Source: Escherichia coli (GTDB lineage Bacteria; Pseudomonadota; Gammaproteobacteria; Enterobacterales; Enterobacteriaceae). Taken from it: DNA of 64,000 nucleotides. This document shows, one piece after another, positions 31,313 through 43,388 of the stretch (its first letter is position 1; each line of letters begins with the position of its first letter). The stretch is from NCBI RefSeq assembly GCF_050920415.1, contig NZ_CP169309.1. One strand, 5' to 3'. The notes below the pieces were generated by a model. The model had not been told where the DNA came from. It was given only the letters and a program-made list of their open reading frames with translations, and ran no database searches. A program made the position numbers and the translations under genes.

Positions 31313-31403
31313 TAGACTGGCCCCCTGAATCTCCAGACAACCAGTATCACTTAAATAAGTGATAGTCTTAATACTAGTTTTTAGACTAGTCATTGGAGAA
31401 CAG

Positions 31404-31769
31404 ATGATTGATGTCTTAGGGCCGGAGAAACGCAGACGGCGTACCACACAGGAAAAGATCGCAATTGTTCAGCAGAGCTTTGAACCGGGGATGACGGTCT
31501 CCCTCGTTGCCCGGCAACATGGTGTAGCAGCCAGCCAGTTATTTCTCTGGCGTAAGCAATACCAGGAAGGAAGTCTTACTGCTGTCGCCGCCGGAGAACA
31601 GGTTGTTCCTGCCTCTGAACTTGCTGCCGCCATGAAGCAGATTAAAGAACTCCAGCGCCTGCTCGGCAAGAAAACGATGGAAAATGAACTCCTCAAAGAA
31701 GCCGTTGAATATGGACGGGCAAAAAAGTGGATAGCGCACGCGCCCTTATTGCCCGGGGATGGGGAGTAA
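31404..31769 (+). CDS. insC: IS2 OrfA (InsC), 121 aa, HTH protein
   Basis: [40 protein letters not shown]… matches remembered IS2 InsC; overlaps insD in the -1 frame (programmed frameshift arrangement). Confidence 0.85.
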
Positions 31770-32632
31770 GCTTAGTCAGCCGTTGTCTCCGGGTGTCGCG
31801 TGCGCAGTTGCACGTCATTCTCAGACGAACCGATGACTGGATGGATGGCCGCCGCAGTCGTCACACTGATGATACGGATGTGCTTCTCCGTATACACCAT
31901 GTTATCGGAGAGCTGCCCACGTATGGTTATCGTCGGGTATGGGCGCTGCTTCGCAGACAGGCAGAACTTGATGGTATGCCTGCGATCAATGCCAAACGTG
32001 TTTACCGGATCATGCGCCAGAATGCGCTGTTGCTTGAGCGAAAACCTGCTGTACCGCCATCGAAACGGGCACATACAGGCAGAGTGGCCGTGAAAGAAAG
32101 CAATCAGCGATGGTGCTCTGACGGGTTCGAGTTCTGCTGTGATAACGGAGAGAGACTGCGTGTCACGTTCGCGCTGGACTGCTGTGATCGTGAGGCACTG
32201 CACTGGGCGGTGACTACTGGCGGCTTCAACAGTGAAACAGTACAGGACGTCATGCTGGGAGCGGTGGAACGCCGCTTCGGCAACGATCTTCCGTCGTCTC
32301 CAGTGGAGTGGCTGACGGATAATGGTTCATGCTACCGGGCTAATGAAACACGCCAGTTCGCCCGGATGTTGGGACTTGAACCGAAGAACACGGCGGTGCG
32401 GAGTCCGGAGAGTAACGGAATAGCAGAGAGCTTCGTGAAAACGATAAAGCGTGACTACATCAGTATCATGCCCAAACCAGACGGGTTAACGGCAGCAAAG
32501 AACCTTGCAGAGGCGTTCGAGCATTATAACGAATGGCATCCGCATAGTGCGCTGGGTTATCGCTCGCCACGGGAATATCTGCGGCAGCGGGCTTGTAATG
32601 GGTTAAGTGATAACAGATGTCTGGAAATATAG
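31727..32632 (+). CDS. insD: IS2 OrfB (InsD) transposase with DDE/integrase core, 301 aa
   Basis: IS3-family transposase catalytic domain; length matches InsD. Confidence 0.85.
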
Positions 32633-32643
32633 GGGCAAATCCA

Positions 32644-32762
32644 ATTAGCAGCTTGAGTAAAAGCCGTTCTTTTTCGGACACGATACCAGGCAAGGTCAAA
32701 TTAACCGTTGCCCCGAACTCTTCCAAAAAAACACTCAAATCATGCGAAGCCATTGAACACAC
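32644..32762 (-). pseudogene. pdeL: pdeL (yahA) 5' fragment (first ~39 codons, start of the LuxR-type HTH)
   Basis: Minus-strand ORF starting at 32762 reads MCSMASHDLSVFLEEFGATVNLTLPGIVSEKERLLLKLL and then runs into the IS2 right end. Confidence 0.7.
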
Positions 32763-32894
32763 CTTGATGAAATCTTGTGCGCCAGCTAAATCTGCTTGTC
32801 TTCACTCTAACTGATAAAGCTGACTGCAAGAAAATGACACAGAGAGCCGAATTATCTCCCGTTCGGCTCTCTCTCCTTTTACTCATTATTCAGA

Positions 32895-35800
32895 TCAGAA
32901 TTGCCACTTAATGCCCACCATTGCAGAGGTGTCATTATATCCTCTATCGGCAACCTGAACGCCCACATTCCCCCAGACATTCAGGTTGGCATTTAGCTGT
33001 CCTTCCACCCCGGTTTTTATCTCAGCAATATTGCGGGCTCCATCCTGAGTGACGGACACGCCATCCATACTGGTGCTGAAATCCTTACTGTTATGCAGCC
33101 AGTTCACTTCTACAAACGGCTGGAACTCGCGGGATTTACTGTCATCCATTTTATGGTGGCTCTTCAGCCAGGTTTTTACGCCAAGTCGGGTTTGAACATT
33201 GCCATCACCGTTGCTATGAACGAGGGTTCCGTTGCTTTCGCGGTGATTATCGGCTTTGACTCCCATCCAGGTAACCTGTGCTTGCGGCTGAACATACCAT
33301 TCATTACGCGTTCCCTGGCTGCCATTAAATTCAGCTAATTTGTGTTTGTATCCAGCTTCCAGTGACGCGGTAAATCCTTTTGATTTATAGGATTCACTTT
33401 GTAAGTCATCCCCTTTCACTGTGTTATCAAACCAACTGTACTGCGCCCAACTGTCGAGATACGCGCCATTACGCGACTCGTCATCGGCATACCAGGTGGC
33501 ATAGAGGCCTGTGCTATATCCGTTCACACTCGCTTTTGCACGATAACCAGTGCGCGAGGAGGTCGTTTTGCTGTCGCTGTTGCCATATCCCGCCATGACC
33601 CCAATATGCCAGCGATCGCTGTCGTTTTGGCTCCACTGCGCGATATCGCCTCCCAGTTGCAGAACATAGCGATTGCTTTGGGTTTTCAGCTGGCCGCTGC
33701 CATCACGCCATTTATTATGACCCCCTTCATGGCGCATCCACATACTGGTTTGTTTCTGCTCACCCGTCACCATGTCGGTATAGTATGTATTTCCCAGACG
33801 CTCATGCAGACGCGTGTTGAACATGGTATTCGCTGCTGCAAGGTTCGCAATGTAGCTACCCGCCTCCGGTCGCAGGTCATTATCCACATTCAGATCCGGA
33901 CCCGGCGTAGGTGTCGGGTTAGGGTTCGGCTCTGGATTCGGGTTTGGCTCCGGATTCGGCATCGGGTCTGGCTCCGGCTGCAGTTCAGGAGAATCACTGC
34001 CGCTGGTCAGATACCAGTTACCACTATTTGCCCCTTGTCCACGCGCGAGAGTGTAGTCATATGCCCCCGCAACGATACGCCCAGCCTGAACAAATTCGCC
34101 CTCAGACTTACCGTCAACATGGATAAGTTCGATACCGTTAAGGGTTTTCGCACCTGTACCGCCAGCGTTATTCACCGTAACGGCAGTCGTGCCGCTAGTA
34201 TCGCCCTCGACAACCAATTTATCAGTTACTGAATCATCGCCATTCAGTACCGTATTCATTACCAGTTGGCCGTTATTACCGTAGTAGTTCCCCTTCACCA
34301 CCAACACGTTGCCAGCTTGCAGTCCTGACATCCCGGTCATCAGCGTACCGTTGTTGGTCAGATTGCCACCCAGGGTGTAATTCACTGGTGCAGCCGCTCT
34401 TTTTTCAGCGCTATTATTCAGCGCCAGGGTGCCGTTGTTCTCAATGTTTGCGTTACCCATTCCCTGCGCATGACTAACCAGGACATTAGCCGAGCTAGCA
34501 ATGTTCACATTCGCCGTCAGGTTGCTATTATCGCCCGCGATATCCAGCGTGCCGCCCTGAATATTCAGCTCTCCGCTTCCCGTTAACGAACCGGTTGAAG
34601 TGCCCCCGTTGGTAACCGTCAGACTCCCGCCGTTCAAGCTCAGCAGTGAATCGGCGCTGCCATTGAGCGTGCCCACGATCTGGCTGTGACCATTCATATC
34701 CAGTTCAGTCTCTGCCGCCAGACGCAGTTCATGGGTATTACCCAACACGTTATCGTTATTCAACAAAAGCGTCCCGCTGCGCAGATCGGTAATACCGGTA
34801 TAGTCGTTGTCTTTGTTAGAAAGCGATACGGTCTGACCTTTCTGGCTGCTGAAAGCCAGGTCACCACTGCCGGTAATCTTTGCACTAAGATCGGCGGCAT
34901 TCTCGCTCTTACCGTTGGCACTCAGCACCAGGGCATCACTGTCGGTAGCCTGCAATTCAAGCTGGGTCAGGCCGTAACCGATATACAGACCGTCATTGTT
35001 TACCCCACTCGTCAGACGATAGTCGTAAGTGCCGACGGCCGCTTTTTGCCCATTCTGCTGAATATCACGTTGGGCGCTGCTGGAGAGGATTTGCCCATTT
35101 TTATCCTGCAATTGCAGATTGCCCGCATCGCCCAGAACTTCCGCACCTTGCGCATCAACCAACTTAATGGTGCTGTTACCATCATCGACTTCAGTGAGCG
35201 ATAACGCAGAGTCAATATCACGAGATACTGAGCGGACAACGTCACTGTCAGAAACCTCAATCACACCCTCGCCGCGCAAATCCAGCGTTTTACTAACGTT
35301 GACTGTCCCTTCTGTCATCTGCGCGCCAGCGGTCAGGGCACCAAAATCAACGGTTCCGCCCGAGAATCCCAGAGTGCTAATGGAGTGAGCGCCCTTACCC
35401 ACTGTTATCTGGCTTCCCTGACCCGCAGTGATCCCGCCTTTCTGCAGAAACTCAGCATTTTTTTCCAGGTTAAATGTCGTGTTCTGGAATGCCAGTGCCC
35501 CCTGAAACCAGTCTGTATAAGCAAACTCATCGAAGGAGAATTCGTGATTCCCCATGTTTATTTCAACAACGCCTTTACCTTCAAGATCGTTATCAAACAC
35601 CCAATCTTTATTGGCATTAATTTGCAGTTTGCCATCAACATCCAGTTCTGCACGGCCGATGTTCTTATCTTCAGAAATAACAGCGACAGCATCGGAAGCG
35701 ACATCAATATATCCGCTGAATGCATAGTTATTGCCGATCAACTCCACCGTCCCACTGTCGATACTTATTGTACCGTTGCCGGAAATCTTATTGGCAAAGG

Positions 35801-36878
35801 TCATGCTATCGTCAGCCTTCAGGTGTAATTTCCCGCGGTTGGTGATTTCTGCTGTACCTATATTTTGGGTGATCCCTAAAGCCCCGTTTTTCTCAATTTT
35901 GACTTTGCCGCTAAAGGCGGAGTTATCACCGGTTAAGTAAGTTGTACCATTGAGCGCATTGATATAGCCCAGGCCCTCGCTGCCACTGACAATATCCGCG
36001 GAAATAGTCGCGTTTTTATCCGTGTGGTTTAAAGTGATTTTCTTATCTGATGTCGAAGCCCACACAAACTCAATTTTTTCGGCATCAATAATCCCTGCCG
36101 CCTTCGCTGCATTTCCTTCCTGTGCACCTAACGCCAACTCAGAGTTGGTGCTTAAACTAATAGTCGGCGCAGATACTTTTCCGCCTTCTGAAACGGCAAG
36201 TGTTGTATCGGAGTTTTGATTATAATAGCCCAGGCTAATTTGCTTACTGGCATTAACTTCACCGCCGTTATTAACTGACAGGTACTGATTACCACCGTAA
36301 CTGCTGTAAACGCCCATAAAGAAGGTTTCGGAATTTACCTGGCTACCTTCCCCACTGACATTTCCCTGCGTATAAGTCAGACGACTGGTGCCCTTAACAT
36401 GGATTTTGCCGCCGTTGGAGACATTAAAATAGCCGCGATCGTGTCTCATGCCTGAGTTTGATTCATACAAATCATCAGCATATAACTCGCTGCCAGCATT
36501 GGAGACATTCAGGAACCCCGTACCTTTCAGCAAAAAGTTAAGTGGGCCATTGATTGTTACCTTTCCTCCGGTAATATCCAACCCACCACCAGAAGCGAGA
36601 GTCAGACGCGGACGGGAAGTATCTGTCGCATTGATTACCAGATTGGCATTGTCAGTCACCGTAATATGGTAATCGATGCTCTGGTTCTCTTTGCCAAAAT
36701 CAATAGTTTTATCCTGGTTTACGATGACATCATCGGCGAATACCAGAGATGAATATAAACTTATCGCGCTAATTAAAACAGCCCGGGACTTTTTTCCTTT
36801 TACTCTGCTCCCCAGCTCAGAGCAAACGCTCCAACAGTTACGGGACCTGTTCCACTTTAGCCGATATATTTTATTCAT
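32895..36878 (-). CDS. ehaA: AIDA-I-type autotransporter adhesin, EhaA-like, about 1327 aa
   Basis: Extended autotransporter signal peptide (MNKIYRLKWNRSRNCWSV…), long Gly/Asn/Thr-rich passenger, Pro-rich linker PEPDPMPNPEPNPNPEPNPNPTPTP, C-terminal beta-barrel ending …GIKWQF; start set at MNKIYRLKW. Name assigned from memory of O157:H7 EhaA length and locus. Confidence 0.75.
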   Translation of the reverse strand: MNKIYRLKWNRSRNCWSVCSELGSRVKGKKSRAVLISAISLYSSLVFADDVIVNQDKTIDFGKENQSIDYHITVTDNANLVINATDTSRPRLTLASGGGLDITGGKVTINGPLNFLLKGTGFLNVSNAGSELYADDLYESNSGMRHDRGYFNVSNGGKIHVKGTSRLTYTQGNVSGEGSQVNSETFFMGVYSSYGGNQYLSVNNGGEVNASKQISLGYYNQNSDTTLAVSEGGKVSAPTISLSTNSELALGAQEGNAAKAAGIIDAEKIEFVWASTSDKKITLNHTDKNATISADIVSGSEGLGYINALNGTTYLTGDNSAFSGKVKIEKNGALGITQNIGTAEITNRGKLHLKADDSMTFANKISGNGTISIDSGTVELIGNNYAFSGYIDVASDAVAVISEDKNIGRAELDVDGKLQINANKDWVFDNDLEGKGVVEINMGNHEFSFDEFAYTDWFQGALAFQNTTFNLEKNAEFLQKGGITAGQGSQITVGKGAHSISTLGFSGGTVDFGALTAGAQMTEGTVNVSKTLDLRGEGVIEVSDSDVVRSVSRDIDSALSLTEVDDGNSTIKLVDAQGAEVLGDAGNLQLQDKNGQILSSSAQRDIQQNGQKAAVGTYDYRLTSGVNNDGLYIGYGLTQLELQATDSDALVLSANGKSENAADLSAKITGSGDLAFSSQKGQTVSLSNKDNDYTGITDLRSGTLLLNNDNVLGNTHELRLAAETELDMNGHSQIVGTLNGSADSLLSLNGGSLTVTNGGTSTGSLTGSGELNIQGGTLDIAGDNSNLTANVNIASSANVLVSHAQGMGNANIENNGTLALNNSAEKRAAAPVNYTLGGNLTNNGTLMTGMSGLQAGNVLVVKGNYYGNNGQLVMNTVLNGDDSVTDKLVVEGDTSGTTAVTVNNAGGTGAKTLNGIELIHVDGKSEGEFVQAGRIVAGAYDYTLARGQGANSGNWYLTSGSDSPELQPEPDPMPNPEPNPNPEPNPNPTPTPGPDLNVDNDLRPEAGSYIANLAAANTMFNTRLHERLGNTYYTDMVTGEQKQTSMWMRHEGGHNKWRDGSGQLKTQSNRYVLQLGGDIAQWSQNDSDRWHIGVMAGYGNSDSKTTSSRTGYRAKASVNGYSTGLYATWYADDESRNGAYLDSWAQYSWFDNTVKGDDLQSESYKSKGFTASLEAGYKHKLAEFNGSQGTRNEWYVQPQAQVTWMGVKADNHRESNGTLVHSNGDGNVQTRLGVKTWLKSHHKMDDSKSREFQPFVEVNWLHNSKDFSTSMDGVSVTQDGARNIAEIKTGVEGQLNANLNVWGNVGVQVADRGYNDTSAMVGIKWQF

Positions 36879-37408
36879 CACAATCTCCAGCAATACATCC
36901 AAATAAAACTAAGATTGCATAAACAGCAACGCATTAAATGCCATTCCGGTTACTGTTCATCGCATATAAAAATTCAAAAATTTTGCATAGCATTGACAAC
37001 CACATATCTGAGTATGTAGTTCAGAGGGTAATAAAATAGCAAGTTACTACTGAAAACTTATTTTAAGTTAACACTATTAACTTTATCATTACATTCCTCC
37101 CAGTCTCGAATACCTGCGCATTATATGTATCCAGGAACTCAAATCAACTCAAAATATAAACAAAAGCAGGAGGAATACACTTAATATACAGCCGATAAAA
37201 GTGGTAACTCTTATTAGGTATCAAAATATAAGAATCGTCTTATTAATAAATATATAACTCTATAGGACTGAATCCATTCAGCTAATACAAAATAAAATCG
37301 TTAATTAATAAAATATAAAATCATGAAGTGATACAAGAGGAATTGCAGGATATGACATGACAATCATATATAATATATGCATAATTTTTTACAGCGAGTC
37401 AATGATTT

Positions 37409-37438
37409 CCGCGCCATATGCAGACATGGCGCGGTTTT
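37409..37438 (+). terminator. Putative intrinsic terminator (9-bp GC stem + TTTT) abutting the betT 3' end
   Basis: CCGCGCCAT-atgcagac-ATGGCGCGG followed by TTTTAT on the plus strand; the T-run is only present in the plus orientation. Confidence 0.45.
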
Positions 37439-37450
37439 ATGCAATAACAA

Positions 37451-39484
37451 TCACGCGTCCGGGAACATCACGCTATGGCCCGGCGCTTCACGATGGAGAT
37501 GGATAAAGTTAAGGTGCCGCTCGTACTGGTCGAGAATATCGGTGATCACCTGCTCTTTGCTGTAGTCCATCAGGTCGTTGCCCTGGCTGCCTTCTAACAG
37601 GAAGGTTTCCAGCCGGTAGTAGGTCGATTTACCGCTACGTGCGCGGTAGGTAAAGCCCGGCACCGAATATTGCTGCGGCCAAATCTGATAGACAAAGTTT
37701 TGCTCTTCGCCCATATGCACCAACAAATCCAGATGCCCCAACTGTTGTCCCTCTTCCGGCGGCAGGCTTTTTAGCTCCACGTACGCGCCGCGCAACCGCA
37801 GCTCCTGCGCCACTTCTTCCATTGCCGGGTAACAGACCGTCTCCATCATCTGTTTAGTGTAACGCGTGCCCGGATAATTCATCAGGCGCGAGAGACGCTT
37901 TTTCCAGCTCAGGCGATCCTGAACGCTCAATGGCCGCGGTGCAGTATCACGACTCGCACTTTCCCGGCGATAATCTTCAACTTTCAGCGATTTATACAAT
38001 CCCGCCATGACGAAGAAAATCACAAAACTAAACGGCAGCCCCATGATGACCGTGGTGTTTTGTAGCGCGGATATCCCGTTGGTCATTAACATACCGAGCG
38101 TCAGCAGACCAATGGCAACCGACCAGAATACACGCAGCCAGCCCGGCGCGTCGCTGTTGATATCTTTAAGCTGCGAGGTGAAATTCCCCAGCACCAGCGC
38201 CCCGGAATCTGCCGAAGTTACATAGAACAGCAGACCCGTAATGGTGGCAACCGAGGCGCTAAAGGTAAATGCCGGATACTGCGCCAACAGGCTGTAGAAG
38301 CCGCGCTCCGGATGGACCATCGCTTCCTGGGCAAATGCCGCGCCGCCGTGGATGATTTCATACAGCGCGCTATTGCCGAACACCGAGAGCCATAACAGCG
38401 TGAAGGTAAACGGAATAATCAACGTCCCCAGCACGAACTGGCGAATGGTGCGCCCACGCGAGATACGCGCCAGGAACAGGCCGACAAACGGCGACCAGGC
38501 CACCCACCATGCCCAGAAAAAGAGCGTCCAGTTATTCATCCACTCCACCGGGCGGTCAAAGGCGAAACTGTTGAGCGTCATGCCCATAAAGCGGTTGACG
38601 TAATCGCCGACGTTCAGCACCAGCGCATTGAGCAGGAACGAGGTGTCGCCCATAAACAGCACGAACAGGATCAGCCCCAGCGCCAGTGCGACATTGAGTT
38701 CAGACAATACGCGAATGCCTTTGTCGACACCGGATGTCACCGAGATAGTCGCGATAATCACCGACAGCGCGATCAGCGCCGCTTTCGCCGCCATTGAATC
38801 CGGAATATCAAACAGTACGCTCAGGCCATAGTTAAGCTGCACCACGCCAATGCCGAGCGTGGTGGCAATCCCGAAGATGGTTCCGATCACCGCGGCAATA
38901 TCCACCGAGTGACCAATCGGCCCGTTGATCCGTTTACCGAAAATCGGATACAGCGCCGAGCGGATGGTGAGCGGCAAATTATAACGATAGCTGAAGTATC
39001 CGAGCGCCATGCCCATCAGCGCATACATCGACCAGCCGGTTAAGCCGTAGTGAAACAGCGTCCAGACCATCGCCTGACGCGCGGCCTCAATCGTCTGACC
39101 CGCGCCTTCCGGCGGCTGCATATACTGCGTTACCGGTTCGGCTACGGAGAAGAACATCAGGTCGATACCGATCCCGGCAGCAAACAGCATCGCCGCCCAG
39201 CTCAGCAGGCTGAACTCAGGCTTAGACTGCTCGGGCCCGAGTTTCACCGAACCAAAGCGCGAACAGGCAATGCAGACCACAAAGACAATATAGAGCGTTG
39301 CCGCTAACAGATAGTACCAACCAAAAGTTTTAGAAACCCAGTCCAGCGTGCGGCCAATCCACAGGGCCGAGAAGTCGCGAAACAGGATCGTTGTCAGGGA
39401 AAACAACAAAATCAGTCCGGCGGAGGTGTAAAACACCACCGGATTGATTTTGTCCTTTTCCCTGCTGTGCGAAAGGTCTGTCAT
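37451..39484 (-). CDS. betT: Choline transporter BetT (BCCT family), 677 aa
   Basis: BCCT-family membrane protein with long C-terminal cytoplasmic extension; divergent from betIBA. Confidence 0.9.
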   Translation of the reverse strand: MTDLSHSREKDKINPVVFYTSAGLILLFSLTTILFRDFSALWIGRTLDWVSKTFGWYYLLAATLYIVFVVCIACSRFGSVKLGPEQSKPEFSLLSWAAMLFAAGIGIDLMFFSVAEPVTQYMQPPEGAGQTIEAARQAMVWTLFHYGLTGWSMYALMGMALGYFSYRYNLPLTIRSALYPIFGKRINGPIGHSVDIAAVIGTIFGIATTLGIGVVQLNYGLSVLFDIPDSMAAKAALIALSVIIATISVTSGVDKGIRVLSELNVALALGLILFVLFMGDTSFLLNALVLNVGDYVNRFMGMTLNSFAFDRPVEWMNNWTLFFWAWWVAWSPFVGLFLARISRGRTIRQFVLGTLIIPFTFTLLWLSVFGNSALYEIIHGGAAFAQEAMVHPERGFYSLLAQYPAFTFSASVATITGLLFYVTSADSGALVLGNFTSQLKDINSDAPGWLRVFWSVAIGLLTLGMLMTNGISALQNTTVIMGLPFSFVIFFVMAGLYKSLKVEDYRRESASRDTAPRPLSVQDRLSWKKRLSRLMNYPGTRYTKQMMETVCYPAMEEVAQELRLRGAYVELKSLPPEEGQQLGHLDLLVHMGEEQNFVYQIWPQQYSVPGFTYRARSGKSTYYRLETFLLEGSQGNDLMDYSKEQVITDILDQYERHLNFIHLHREAPGHSVMFPDA

Positions 39485-39549
39485 CCAGTATCCCCACTAT
39501 TATTGTTACCATTTAAAATCAAATTCGTAACAATTAAGACACATTTTAT

Positions 39550-39567
39550 ATTGAACGTCCAATCAAT
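39550..39567. promoter_or_regulatory. Candidate BetI operator in the betT–betI divergent promoter region
   Basis: Inverted repeat ATTGA-N8-TCAAT (ATTGAACGTCCAATCAAT) in the 128-bp AT-rich spacer; assignment to BetI is by context. Confidence 0.35.
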
Positions 39568-39612
39568 AACCGCTTTAATAGATTAACAACGCTGATGAAT
39601 GGAGTGGCAAAA

Positions 39613-40200
39613 ATGCCCAAATTGGGGATGCAGTCGATCCGGCGCAGACAACTGATCGACGCCACGCTGGAAGCAATAAATGAAGTAGGTATGCACGATG
39701 CGACGATCGCGCAGATCGCCCGCCGGGCGGGCGTTTCCACCGGGATCATTAGCCACTATTTCAAAGATAAAAATGGTCTGCTGGAAGCAACCATGCGTGA
39801 TATCACCAGCCAGCTGCGTGACGCGGTCTTGAACCGCTTACACGCGCTACCGGATGGCAGCCCTGAGCAGCGATTACAGGCGATTGTTGACGGAAATTTC
39901 GATGAGACTCAGGTCAGTAATGCTGCGATGAAAGCCTGGCTGGCGTTTTGGGCCAGCAGTATGCATCAGCCGATGCTTTACCGTTTGCAGCAGGTGAGCA
40001 GCCGCCGCTTGTTGTCGAATCTGGTGAGCGAATTTCACCGCGAGTTACCGCGCAAAGAGGCACAGGAGGCAGGTTATGGCCTGGCCGCGCTGATTGACGG
40101 TTTATGGCTGCGCGCGGCATTGAGCGGTAAACCGCTGGATAAACCTCTCGCACACTCGCTGACCCGTCACTTTATTACTCAGCATTTACCCACCGATTAA
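39613..40200 (+). CDS. betI: TetR-family repressor BetI, 195 aa
   Basis: Start set at [24 protein letters not shown]…; TetR HTH. Confidence 0.85.
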
Positions 40201-40213
40201 CCGAGGAGACGTG

Positions 40214-41686
40214 ATGTCCCGAATGGCAGAACAGCAGCTTTATATACATGGTGGTTATACCTCCGCCACCAGCGGTCGCACCTTCGAGACCATTAACCCG
40301 GCCAACGGTAACGTGCTGGCAACCGTGCAGGCCGCCGGGCGCGAAGATGTCGATCGCGCCGTGAAGAGTGCCCAACAAGGGCAAAAAATCTGGGCGGCGA
40401 TGACCGCCATGGAACGCTCGCGCATTCTGCGTCGGGCCGTTGATATTGTGCGCGAACGCAATGACGAACTCGCTAAACTGGAAACCCTCGACACCGGAAA
40501 AGCGTATTCAGAAACCTCAACCGTCGATATCGTTACCGGCGCGGACGTGCTCGAGTACTACGCCGGGCTGATCCCGTCGCTGGAAGGCAGCCAGATCCCG
40601 CTACGCGAGACGTCGTTTGTTTATACCCGCCGTGAACCGCTGGGCGTGGTCGCCGGAATTGGCGCATGGAATTACCCGATTCAGATTGCTTTGTGGAAAT
40701 CCGCACCGGCGCTGGCGGCAGGCAACGCGATGATTTTCAAACCGAGCGAAGTCACCCCGCTTACCGCGTTAAAGCTGGCCGAAATTTACAGCGAAGCGGG
40801 CCTGCCGGACGGCGTATTTAACGTGTTGCCGGGCGTGGGCGCAGAGACCGGGCAGTATCTGACCGAGCATCCGGGCATTGCCAAAGTGTCATTTACCGGC
40901 GGCGTTGCCAGCGGTAAAAAAGTGATGGCTAACTCGGCGGCCTCTTCCCTGAAAGAAGTGACCATGGAACTGGGCGGTAAATCACCGCTGATCGTTTTCG
41001 ACGATGCAGACCTCGATCTCGCCGCCGATATCGCCATGATGGCGAACTTCTTCAGCTCCGGCCAAGTGTGTACCAACGGCACCCGCGTGTTCGTTCCGGC
41101 GAAATGCAAAGTCGCATTTGAGCAAAAGATTCTCACGCGCGTTGAACGCATTCGCGCGGGCGACGTTTTCGATCCGCAAACTAACTTCGGCCCGCTGGTC
41201 AGCTTCCCGCATCGCGATAACGTGCTGCGCTATATCGCTAAAGGCAAAGAGGAAGGCGCGCGCGTACTGTGCGGCGGCGATGTGCTGAAGGGTGATGGCT
41301 TCGATAACGGCGCATGGGTTGCACCGACCGTGTTCACCGATTGCCGCGACGAAATGACTATCGTGCGCGAAGAGATCTTCGGCCCGGTGATGTCGCTCCT
41401 CACGTATGAGTCTGAAGACGAAGTGATTCGCCGCGCCAATGATACCGACTACGGTCTGGCGGCGGGTATCGTCACGGCGGATCTGAACCGCGCGCATCGC
41501 GTCATTCATCAGCTGGAAGCGGGTATTTGCTGGGTCAACACCTGGGGAGAATCCCCGGCGGAGATGCCCGTTGGCGGCTACAAACACTCCGGCATTGGTC
41601 GCGAGAACGGCGTGATGACGCTCCAGAGTTACACCCAGGTGAAGTCCATCCAGGTTGAGATGGCTAAATTCCAGTCCATATTCTAA
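40214..41686 (+). CDS. betB: Betaine-aldehyde dehydrogenase BetB, about 490 aa
   Basis: Aldehyde dehydrogenase family with catalytic Cys region (…[15 protein letters not shown]…); 10 bp downstream of betI. Confidence 0.9.
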
Positions 41687-41699
41687 CCAGGAGGTTTAT

Positions 41700-43388
41700 T
41701 TGCAATTTGACTACATCATTATTGGCGCCGGCTCTGCCGGCAACGTCCTCGCGACACGTCTGACTGAAGATCCGAACACTACCGTGCTGCTGCTTGAAGC
41801 GGGCGGCCCGGACTATCGCTTTGACTTCCGTACCCAAATGCCCGCTGCGCTGGCGTTCCCGCTACAGGGTAAACGCTATAACTGGGCCTATGAGACCGAG
41901 CCGGAACCGTTTATGAACAACCGTCGCATGGAGTGCGGACGCGGTAAGGGGCTTGGTGGATCATCACTGATCAACGGCATGTGTTACATCCGTGGTAACG
42001 CGCTGGATCTCGATAACTGGGCGAAAGAACCCGGTCTGGAGAACTGGAGCTACCTCGACTGCCTGCCCTACTACCGCAAGGCCGAGACGCGCGATGTGGG
42101 CGAGAACGACTACCACGGCGCTGATGGCCCGGTAAGCGTGACCACCTCAAAACCGGGTGTCAATCCGCTGTTTGAAGCGATGATTGAGGCGGGCGTGCAG
42201 GCGGGCTATCCGCGCACAGAAGACCTTAACGGTTATCAGCAGGAAGGTTTCGGCCCGATGGACCGCACCGTCACGCCGCAGGGCCGTCGCGCCAGCACCG
42301 CGCGGGGTTATCTCGATCAGGCCAAATCGCGCCCGAACCTGACTATTCGAACTCACGCCATGACCGATCACATTATCTTTGACGGCAAACGCGCGGTAGG
42401 CGTCGAGTGGCTGGAAGGCGACAGCACCATCCCAACCCGCGCAACGGCCAACAAAGAAGTGCTGTTATGTGCAGGCGCGATTGCCTCACCACAAATCCTG
42501 CAACGCTCCGGCGTCGGCAACGCTGAACTGCTGGCCGAATTTGATATTCCGCTGGTGCATGATTTGCCCGGCGTGGGCGAAAATCTTCAGGATCATCTGG
42601 AGATGTACCTGCAATACGAGTGCAAAGAACCGGTTTCCCTCTACCCTGCCCTGCAGTGGTGGAATCAGCCGAAAATCGGTGCGGAGTGGCTGTTTGGCGG
42701 CACCGGCGTGGGTGCCAGCAACCACTTTGAAGCAGGCGGATTTATTCGCAGCCGTGAGGAATTTGCGTGGCCGAATATTCAGTACCATTTCCTGCCAGTG
42801 GCGATTAACTATAACGGCTCGAACGCAGTGAAAGAGCACGGCTTCCAGTGCCATGTCGGATCGATGCGCTCGCCAAGCCGTGGGCATGTGCGGATTAAAT
42901 CCCGCGACCCGCACCAGCATCCGGCGATTTTGTTTAACTACATGTCGCACGAACAGGACTGGCAGGAGTTCCGCGACGCGATTCGCATCACCCGCGAGAT
43001 CATGCATCAACCGGCGCTGGATCAATACCGTGGCCGCGAAATCAGCCCCGGCGCGGAATGCCAGACAGATGAGCAGCTCGATGAGTTCGTGCGTAATCAC
43101 GCCGAAACCGCCTTCCACCCATGCGGTACGTGCAAAATGGGGTACGACGAGATGTCCGTTGTGGATGGCGAAGGCCGCGTGCACGGGCTGGAAGGATTAC
43201 GCGTAGTCGATGCGTCAATTATGCCGCAGATTATCACCGGCAATCTGAACGCCACGACCATTATGATTGGCGAGAAAATGGCGGATATGATTCGCGGACG
43301 AGAAGCGTTGCCGAAGAGCACGGCAAGATATTTTGTGGCAAATGGGATGCCGGTGAGAGCGAAAAAAATGAGTCGTGATTTGAACTAA
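41700..43388 (+). CDS. betA: Choline dehydrogenase BetA (GMC oxidoreductase), TTG start
   Basis: TTG start preceded by AGGAGG, giving [18 protein letters not shown]… (FAD-binding GxGxxG); the longer track ORF 41655..43388 overlaps the betB 3' end. Confidence 0.85.

What the first reader, a model, noticed from the sequence alone, without database searches (positions are those of the whole stretch)
37409..37438. Strong plus-strand intrinsic terminator where no plus-strand gene is annotated
A 9-bp GC-rich hairpin followed by TTTT sits at the betT 3' end but is oriented for a transcript coming from the ehaA upstream region on the opposite strand. It may terminate an unannotated plus-strand transcript arising in the AT-rich ehaA control region (36900..37400), or insulate betT from antisense read-through.
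Basis: seen in the sequence. Interest (0 to 1): 0.3.

Follow-up and report, generated by a model that had tools for sequence, protein, structure and literature searches.

The report
betT terminator hairpin at island edge
The hairpin is real, but it is the ordinary end-of-gene terminator hairpin of the choline transporter gene betT, and it looks "backwards" here only because the neighbouring ehaA island replaced the run of T's on its betT side.

Summary
Bases 37409-37434 form a 9-bp, 7-GC stem, followed by TTTT on the + strand. It is one of only 8 terminator-like sites in the 64 kb and is far above chance.

The interpretation needs correcting. The hairpin lies 16 nt after the betT stop codon and belongs to the conserved betT block. 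In about 72% of complete E. coli genomes, which lack ehaA, the same hairpin reads AAAA-hairpin-UUUCUCUU in the betT sense. That is a standard two-way (bidirectional) intrinsic terminator. In about 27% of genomes, including this window, the ehaA flank (O-island 15) begins exactly at the base of the stem. It replaces the sense U-tract with AAAUCAUU. The "+ strand TTTT" is therefore the old A-tract of betT's own terminator read on the other strand.

Inferred function here:
- On the + strand it would still stop any stray transcription coming from the AT-rich ehaA control region.
- On the betT mRNA it probably serves only as a protective 3' stem-loop, with Rho termination or read-through toward ehaA.

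I found no evidence for a discrete + strand transcript and no RNA 3'-end data. The feature is ordinary and of low interest.

The parts
37409..37417 (.). Left arm of the hairpin (CCGCGCCAT on +). Its first base is the exact breakpoint between the conserved betT block and the ehaA/OI-15 flank.
   Evidence: Homology to ehaA-less genomes starts at window 37409-37411.
37418..37425 (.). Loop. It is 8 nt on the + RNA. On the betT-sense RNA two further pairs form, including a G-U, leaving a 4-nt loop (CUGC).
37426..37434 (.). Right arm of the hairpin (ATGGCGCGG on +).
37435..37438 (+). TTTT. This is the U-tract of the + strand reading and the A-tract (AAAA) directly upstream of the hairpin in the betT mRNA.
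   Evidence: Invariant in all four E. coli alleles aligned.
37439..37450 (-). Rest of the 16-nt betT 3' UTR spacer between the stop codon and the hairpin.
   Evidence: In strain Ec1115 an IS1 sits in this spacer, with target duplication GGTTTTATG.
37451..39484 (-). betT (choline BCCT transporter), the gene whose 3' end carries the hairpin.
   Evidence: ORF list and RefSeq annotation of a genome matching window 36900-37700 at 100%.
37394..37408 (-). First 15 nt of the OI-15 flank. This is the betT-sense tail AAAUCAUUGACUCGC, which replaces the U-rich tail UUUCUC(U/C)UACCUCUU of ehaA-less alleles.
   Evidence: Alignment A1 and scores.
36879..37408 (.). AT-rich betT-ehaA spacer, the ehaA control region and part of OI-15. 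It contains no other sense terminator-like site.
   Evidence: GC 25-32%, scan of both strands, OI-15 defined in PMC8565820.
37357..37385 (+). Best + strand sigma-70-like match (ATGACA-17-CATAAT, 10 of 12), 24 nt upstream of the hairpin. It is a candidate only.
   Evidence: The overall count of promoter-like sites is not above the shuffles.
32895..36878 (-). ehaA autotransporter adhesin, the only gene of OI-15, co-directional with and downstream of betT.

Best explanation
The hairpin is the 3'-end terminator hairpin of betT. In most E. coli it is a two-way intrinsic terminator: an A-tract, a GC-rich hairpin and a U-rich tract. In the lineage of this window the variable segment that carries ehaA (O-island 15) abuts the hairpin exactly at the base of its stem, and A-rich sequence sits where the betT-sense U-tract would be. 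The hairpin and the old A-tract remain, and on the + strand they read as a canonical hairpin plus UUUU.

Shown:
- The hairpin belongs to the conserved betT block.
- The breakpoint lies at the stem base.
- The sense tail is U-rich in ehaA-less alleles and absent here.
- No other sense terminator lies before ehaA.

Inferred:
- On the + strand the element would still terminate any stray or divergent transcription from the AT-rich ehaA control region before it runs antisense into betT.
- On the betT mRNA the hairpin no longer terminates by itself. It acts as a 3'-exonuclease-protective stem-loop for transcripts ended downstream by Rho, or lets some transcription read through toward ehaA.
- The U-tract-bearing state is the older one.
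For: Position: the hairpin lies 16 nt after the betT stop.

Breakpoint: homology to 3731 ehaA-less genomes ends exactly at 37409-37411, while 1398 genomes share the ehaA flank.

Sense reading of each allele:
- NC101-type (phylogroup B2): AAAACCGCGCCAUGUCUGCAUAUGGCGCGG-UUUCUCUU, sense score +11.3.
- K-12: the same, with one mismatch at the second stem pair and tail UUUCUCCU, score -17.
- Window and O157:H7: AAAUCAUU / GAAUCAUU, score -43.

Tail statistics: a T-tail as good as NC101's occurs at only about 2% of positions in that spacer.

Strand asymmetry: the betT-sense RNA folds more stably than the + RNA (-19.4 against -17.5 kcal/mol) through a G-U pair that is an A-C mismatch on the other strand.

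Other species: betT is followed within 150 nt by a sense terminator-like site in 32 of 79 loci from other Enterobacterales. In 11 of them the same hairpin scores as a terminator in both directions. Antisense-only cases are rare, 2 of 79.

Literature:
- An adenosine directly upstream of the hairpin improves sense termination (bioRxiv 10.64898/2026.07.06.736697).
- Here the first 78 nt after the hairpin in the betT sense hold 13 C against 9 G.
Against: - No RNA data for either strand at this site. The K-12 3'-end tables I could read list nothing near the betT stop, probably because betT is poorly expressed in those conditions.
- The polarity (U-tract state older) is inferred without an outgroup. 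No Escherichia species other than E. coli was among the fetched loci.
- The K-12 allele has a weakened stem, so the sense terminator is not uniformly strong even in ehaA-less strains.
- The terminator score formula was recalled from memory and is uncalibrated with modern energies.
- The C>G bias downstream of the hairpin is modest.
Confidence: 0.72

Rival explanations
1. It is the dedicated terminator of a discrete, unannotated + strand transcript (a short RNA or antisense RNA) that starts in the ehaA control region. One candidate start is the promoter-like site at 37357-37385, which would give an RNA of roughly 45-50 nt ending at 37438-37441.
For: Only the + reading is canonical here. A 10-of-12 sigma-70 match with a 17-nt spacer lies 24 nt upstream. 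The same sequence is present in O157:H7. AT-rich, H-NS-type DNA is known to harbour spurious promoters (own knowledge).
Against: The hairpin and TTTT are shared with ehaA-less alleles whose upstream flank is unrelated, so they were not built for an OI-15 transcript. Promoter-like sites are not enriched over shuffles. There is no Rfam family and no plausible + strand ORF. No published 3' or 5' end was found.
Confidence: 0.12
2. The hairpin still works as betT's own intrinsic terminator in this lineage despite lacking a U-tract (non-canonical termination), so nothing has changed functionally.
For: The betT-sense hairpin is very stable, with 11 bp and -18 to -19 kcal/mol. An A lies directly upstream. 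About 27% of E. coli keep this arrangement without a second terminator before ehaA.
Against: The tail AAAUCAUU has no U in its first three positions and a T-score of 0.33, against 3.3 in NC101. Intrinsic termination by E. coli RNA polymerase needs the proximal U-tract (established knowledge). Hairpins without U-tracts are characteristic of Rho-dependent 3' ends (PMC6061677).
Confidence: 0.1
3. It is mainly a DNA-level element: a palindrome that served as a recombination or insertion site and thereby set the island boundary, or a protein-binding or REP-like site.
For: The OI-15 breakpoint coincides to the base with the stem base. In one strain an IS1 landed immediately on the other side of the hairpin.
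Against: It is single-copy in the window and in genomes, so it is not REP/BIME. The island has no terminal direct or inverted repeats. The position, A-tract and U-tract in ehaA-less alleles fit an RNA terminator. The sharp boundary is equally explained by selection to keep the betT hairpin intact.
Confidence: 0.05

Closest known systems
Bidirectional (two-way) intrinsic terminators of E. coli: A-tract, GC-rich hairpin, U-tract (Ju et al. 2019, own knowledge; Wang et al., bioRxiv 10.1101/2022.10.23.513370)
   Same: In ehaA-less alleles the very same hairpin is flanked by AAAA and UUUCUC(U/C)U, and the NC101-type allele scores as a terminator in both directions. 11 of 32 betT terminators in other Enterobacterales are also two-way.
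   Different: In this window only one side (+) keeps a U-tract. The flanking genes betT and ehaA are co-directional, not convergent. No transcript is known to arrive on the + strand.
Protective 3' stem-loops of Rho-dependent transcripts (Dar and Sorek 2018, PMC6061677)
   Same: In the betT sense there is a stable stem-loop just after the stop codon, not followed by a U-rich stretch, with mildly C-over-G sequence directly downstream.
   Different: Rho dependence is untested. Here the structure is a former intrinsic terminator that lost its tail, not a structure known to have evolved for that role.
Boundary of O-island 15 (ehaA) of EHEC O157:H7 (PMC8565820)
   Same: The variable segment next to the hairpin is the ehaA-bearing segment described as OI-15, a single-ORF island.
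   Different: The published description concerns the adhesin. The coincidence of the island edge with the betT terminator stem was not found in the papers read.

Membership tests
Intrinsic (Rho-independent) terminator, + strand reading | GC-rich stem-loop of adequate stability | tested here: met
   9 bp, 7 G-C, -16 to -17.5 kcal/mol; z = -3.1.
Intrinsic (Rho-independent) terminator, + strand reading | U-rich tract starting within 0-2 nt of the stem | tested here: met
   UUUUAUGC, 5 U in 8, T-score 3.49. Such tails occur at about 0.5% of window positions.
Intrinsic (Rho-independent) terminator, + strand reading | Transcription reaches it on that strand and RNA 3' ends map to the U-tract | not testable with these tools
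   No RNA data for OI-15 strains were found. The K-12 tables list nothing at the betT 3' end.
Intrinsic terminator of betT (- strand reading) | Stable hairpin shortly after the stop codon | tested here: met
   16 nt after the stop; 11-bp stem, -18.3 to -19.4 kcal/mol.
Intrinsic terminator of betT (- strand reading) | U-rich tract after the hairpin | tested here: not met
   The window tail AAAUCAUU has T-score 0.33 and d = -43. The feature is met in the NC101-type allele (UUUCUCUU, d = +11.3) and is weaker in K-12.
Bidirectional intrinsic terminator | One hairpin flanked by an A-tract and a U-tract, so that both strands read hairpin plus U's | tested here: not met
   Not met in this window, where only the + side qualifies. 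Met in ehaA-less E. coli alleles, 3731 genomes.
Bidirectional intrinsic terminator | Sits between convergent transcription units | tested here: not met
   betT and ehaA are both on the - strand, and no + strand gene is annotated.
Protective stem-loop of a Rho-dependent 3' end | Stable stem-loop not followed by U's, with a C-rich, G-poor rut region just downstream | tested here: inconclusive
   The stem-loop without U's is met. Downstream 78-nt windows hold 12-13 C against 7-9 G, which is only a modest bias.
Protective stem-loop of a Rho-dependent 3' end | Read-through increases when Rho is inhibited | not testable with these tools
   This needs bicyclomycin or rho-mutant RNA-seq.
REP/BIME or other repeated palindromic element | Many copies per genome | tested here: not met
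   One copy in the window with up to 3 mismatches allowed. Median one place per E. coli genome.
Any curated RNA family (Rfam 15) | Covariance-model match | tested here: not met
   No match up to E = 1 in 32000-42000 on either strand.

The most novel reading that the evidence does not exclude
The ehaA island boundary removed the U-tract from betT's terminator. In OI-15 strains, choline- and osmotically induced betT transcription would then read through the 572-nt spacer into ehaA. This would couple expression of an adhesin and biofilm autotransporter to osmotic stress, while the retained hairpin plus UUUU shields betT only from antisense transcription. A one-sided remnant of a two-way terminator would thus have rewired an island gene into a core stress regulon.
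Probability: 0.12. Interest if true: 0.45.

Novelty: new member of a known kind. Interest (0 to 1): 0.15.

Why it matters
As it stands this is an ordinary gene-end terminator. Its only lesson is practical: a hairpin plus T-run on the "wrong" strand at a gene's 3' end is usually the A-tract side of that gene's own two-way terminator. It is not evidence of a hidden transcript. The locus is also a clean natural example of a genomic-island boundary that falls exactly at a terminator stem and strips one half of it. If betT-to-ehaA read-through were shown, it would link an EHEC/STEC adhesin to the osmoprotection regulon. That would interest people who study adhesin regulation, but it would not change general understanding.

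Tried and rejected
- Rfam search of 32000-42000 at E up to 1: nothing.
- Repeat-element idea (REP/BIME): single copy.
- Terminal direct or inverted repeats of the ehaA segment that would indicate a mobile element using the hairpin as a target: none.
- Small + strand ORFs ending before the hairpin: none plausible. The only + ORFs (37357..37506 and 37377..37565) run through the hairpin into antisense betT.
- Published 3'-end maps:
  - Adams 2021 (PMC7815308) has no end near the betT stop in MG1655 coordinates.
  - TRS (PMC10687069) has none.
  - TERMITe (PMC12207403) has no betT entry.
  - No supplement text is held for Dar and Sorek 2018, Choe 2022 or Sy 2020.
  - Ju et al. 2019 is not held.
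- Paper searches: one was wasted on word-start matching of 'betT', and the whole-word search for ehaA plus betT gave nothing relevant.
- Homologues of the hairpin in other genera: absent from all 80 fetched betT loci, so no covariation test was possible.
- Outgroup Escherichia species were not among the loci returned, so the polarity of the change could not be tested directly.
- The extended pairing of the flanks around the hairpin in the betT-sense RNA (-25 kcal/mol for 81 nt, z = -2.8) adds little beyond the core hairpin, so I did not pursue it.

Full report
**Observation.** Bases 37409-37434 read CCGCGCCAT-ATGCAGAC-ATGGCGCGG and are followed by TTTTATG. The consensus scan lists this as the best terminator-like site in 35000-40000: 9 pairs, 7 of them G-C, and a loop of 8. 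The + RNA folds at -17.5 kcal/mol (z = -3.1, none of 200 shuffles as stable). The - RNA folds at -19.4 kcal/mol, because two extra pairs form, one of them G-U, and the loop shrinks to 4 nt.

I scored every hairpin-plus-tail in the 64 kb on both strands with a d'Aubenton-Carafa-type score. The formula was recalled from memory and used ViennaRNA energies, so the zero threshold is only indicative. The + reading scores +6.7 and ranks 5th of the 8 sites above zero. First-order Markov sequences of the same length give 0.43 +/- 0.62 sites that good.

**Context.** The - strand carries betT (39484..37451) and, downstream of it, ehaA (36878..32895). betI, betB and betA run on the + strand from 39595. 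The hairpin begins 16 nt after the betT stop codon. The 572-nt betT-ehaA spacer has 25-32% GC. RefSeq annotation of a genome matching window 36900-37700 at 100% lists nothing on the + strand there. ehaA is the single ORF of O-island 15 of EHEC O157:H7 (PMC8565820).

**Comparison within E. coli.** This is the decisive result.
- Of 5426 complete genomes, 5182 hold the betT 3' end.
- Only 1398 of them share the window's flank. In the others the match begins at window base 37409-37411, the first bases of the stem.
- The reciprocal search with the flank of strain NC101 finds 3731 genomes with the ehaA-less flank. In ehaA-type genomes the match again starts at the first base of the hairpin.

Read in the betT sense, the alleles differ as follows.

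| Allele | Sequence after the hairpin | Sense score |
|---|---|---|
| NC101 (phylogroup B2) | UUUCUCUU, perfect stem | +11.3 |
| K-12 | UUUCUCCU, one mismatch at the second stem pair | -17 |
| Window | AAAUCAUU | -43 |
| O157:H7 | GAAUCAUU | -43 |

The + reading of the window and NC101 alleles scores +6.7. In K-12 the stem mismatch lowers the + reading to about -16.

A T-tail as good as NC101's occurs at only about 2% of positions in that spacer. Its placement exactly at the stem base is therefore not accidental. The hairpin is thus a two-way terminator in most E. coli.

**Comparison with other genera.** Eighty betT loci from other Enterobacterales were fetched. None carries this palindrome, so it is specific to E. 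coli and no covariation test is possible. The position is nevertheless typical:
- 32 of 79 loci have a sense terminator-like site within 150 nt of the stop.
- In 11 of them the same hairpin scores in both directions.
- Only 2 loci are antisense-only.

An adenosine directly upstream of a terminator hairpin improves sense termination in E. coli (bioRxiv 10.64898/2026.07.06.736697). This gives the A-tract a role in betT's own termination, independent of any antisense transcript.

**What the element most likely does in this window.**

*On the + strand (inferred).* Hairpin plus UUUU would stop RNA polymerase coming from the AT-rich ehaA control region. A 10-of-12 sigma-70 match lies at 37357-37385 and a 9-of-12 match at 37068-37095. 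Promoter-like sites are not more frequent than in shuffles, though (6 found against 6.8 expected).

*On the - strand.* The hairpin has lost the U-tract that intrinsic termination requires. No other terminator-like site lies between it and ehaA. Two outcomes are possible:
- Rho terminates in the untranslated spacer and exonucleases trim back to the hairpin. This pattern was described for Rho-dependent transcripts, whose 3' ends lie just after stable stem-loops without U's and have rut sites immediately downstream (PMC6061677). Here the first 78-nt windows hold 12-13 C against 7-9 G.
- Some transcription reads through into ehaA.

I rate the first outcome more likely. Neither can be tested with these tools.

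**Polarity.** I infer that the U-tract-bearing state is the older one. A hairpin flanked by both an A-tract and a U-tract is a functional unit, and it is unlikely to be created by a deletion endpoint. No outgroup Escherichia genome was available to check this.

The ehaA segment has no terminal repeats. Its upstream region keeps two short colinear patches of similarity to the K-12 betT-pdeL spacer. The two haplotypes therefore appear to be old alternative versions of the same intergenic region rather than the result of a recent mobile insertion.

**RNA evidence.** I looked for 3'-end maps and found none that covers this site.
- The K-12 tables of Adams 2021 and of the TRS study list no end near the betT stop on either strand. 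This is expected for a gene expressed mainly under osmotic stress with choline.
- Supplements of the other candidate studies are not held.
- One paper is not in the library.

**Verdict.** The feature is real and is an ordinary member of a known kind: the terminator hairpin of betT. It is two-way in most strains. In ehaA-carrying strains it is one-sided, because the island boundary falls exactly at the stem base. The suggestion of a hidden + strand transcript has no support. The most interesting reading that remains open is betT-to-ehaA read-through, which would couple the adhesin to the osmoprotection regulon. I give it about 0.12 probability.

Noticed in passing
window 31316-32643: pdeL is interrupted by an insertion of about 1.33 kb. 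Its 301-aa ORF (31727..32632, +) matches IS2 transposase TnpB (NF006918, 727 bits). A genome that matches window 36900-37700 at 100% has an intact pdeL.
   Followed up: partly
window 37262-37278 (and K-12 locus L001 1150-1166): A palindrome GACTGAATCCATTCAGC sits in one of two short patches where the ehaA upstream region is colinear with the K-12 betT-pdeL spacer. From memory it resembles the Cra (FruR) box consensus, and the K-12 pdeL promoter is reported to be co-activated by Cra and PdeL and silenced by H-NS (bioRxiv 10.1101/2021.10.01.462762). In ehaA strains this control region lies upstream of ehaA rather than pdeL. Whether this palindrome is the published Cra site was not verified.
   Followed up: partly
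locus L086 1725-2510 (E. coli strain Ec1115): In this ehaA-carrying strain an IS1 is inserted in the 16-nt spacer between the hairpin and the betT stop codon, with a 9-bp target duplication GGTTTTATG. This separates betT from its hairpin by about 0.8 kb.
   Followed up: partly
window 16153-20589: About 5.2 kb absent from K-12 (window 16224-21488) encodes a sugar-type ABC transporter on the - strand: a substrate-binding protein, an ATPase and two permeases, all below the equivalog cut-offs of ribose, arabinose and rhamnose systems. A strong terminator-like hairpin (19576-19593, -) follows the binding-protein gene.
   Followed up: partly
locus L001 1501-1526 (K-12) compared with window 37409-37434: K-12-type alleles (about 1676 records in the 90-95% identity band) carry a C-to-A change at the second stem position. 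It mismatches on both strands and lowers the predicted stability from about -18 to -12 kcal/mol. The laboratory strain may therefore have a weaker betT terminator than B2 strains.
   Followed up: partly
window 37305-37382 (- strand): A 25-aa hydrophobic ORF (MHILYMIVMSYPAIPLVSLHDFIFY) lies in roughly the position, relative to the palindrome, that the 24-aa small protein YahV occupies in K-12. It has no sequence similarity to YahV and no evident Shine-Dalgarno sequence, so it is probably not a gene.
   Followed up: no
window 32841-32872 (- strand reading): ehaA has its own 3' hairpin (AGAGAGCCGAA...TTCGGCTCTCT) 23 nt after its stop. A T-rich stretch follows only after a 6-nt spacer, and the hairpin lies about 90 nt upstream of the pdeL start.
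   Followed up: no
loci L004, L005 (Pseudocitrobacter): BetT of Pseudocitrobacter is reported 98-99% identical (best segment) to the E. coli protein, closer than that of Citrobacter or Enterobacter. The 3' flank is nevertheless an unrelated terminator, which may point to transfer of the bet genes.
   Followed up: no
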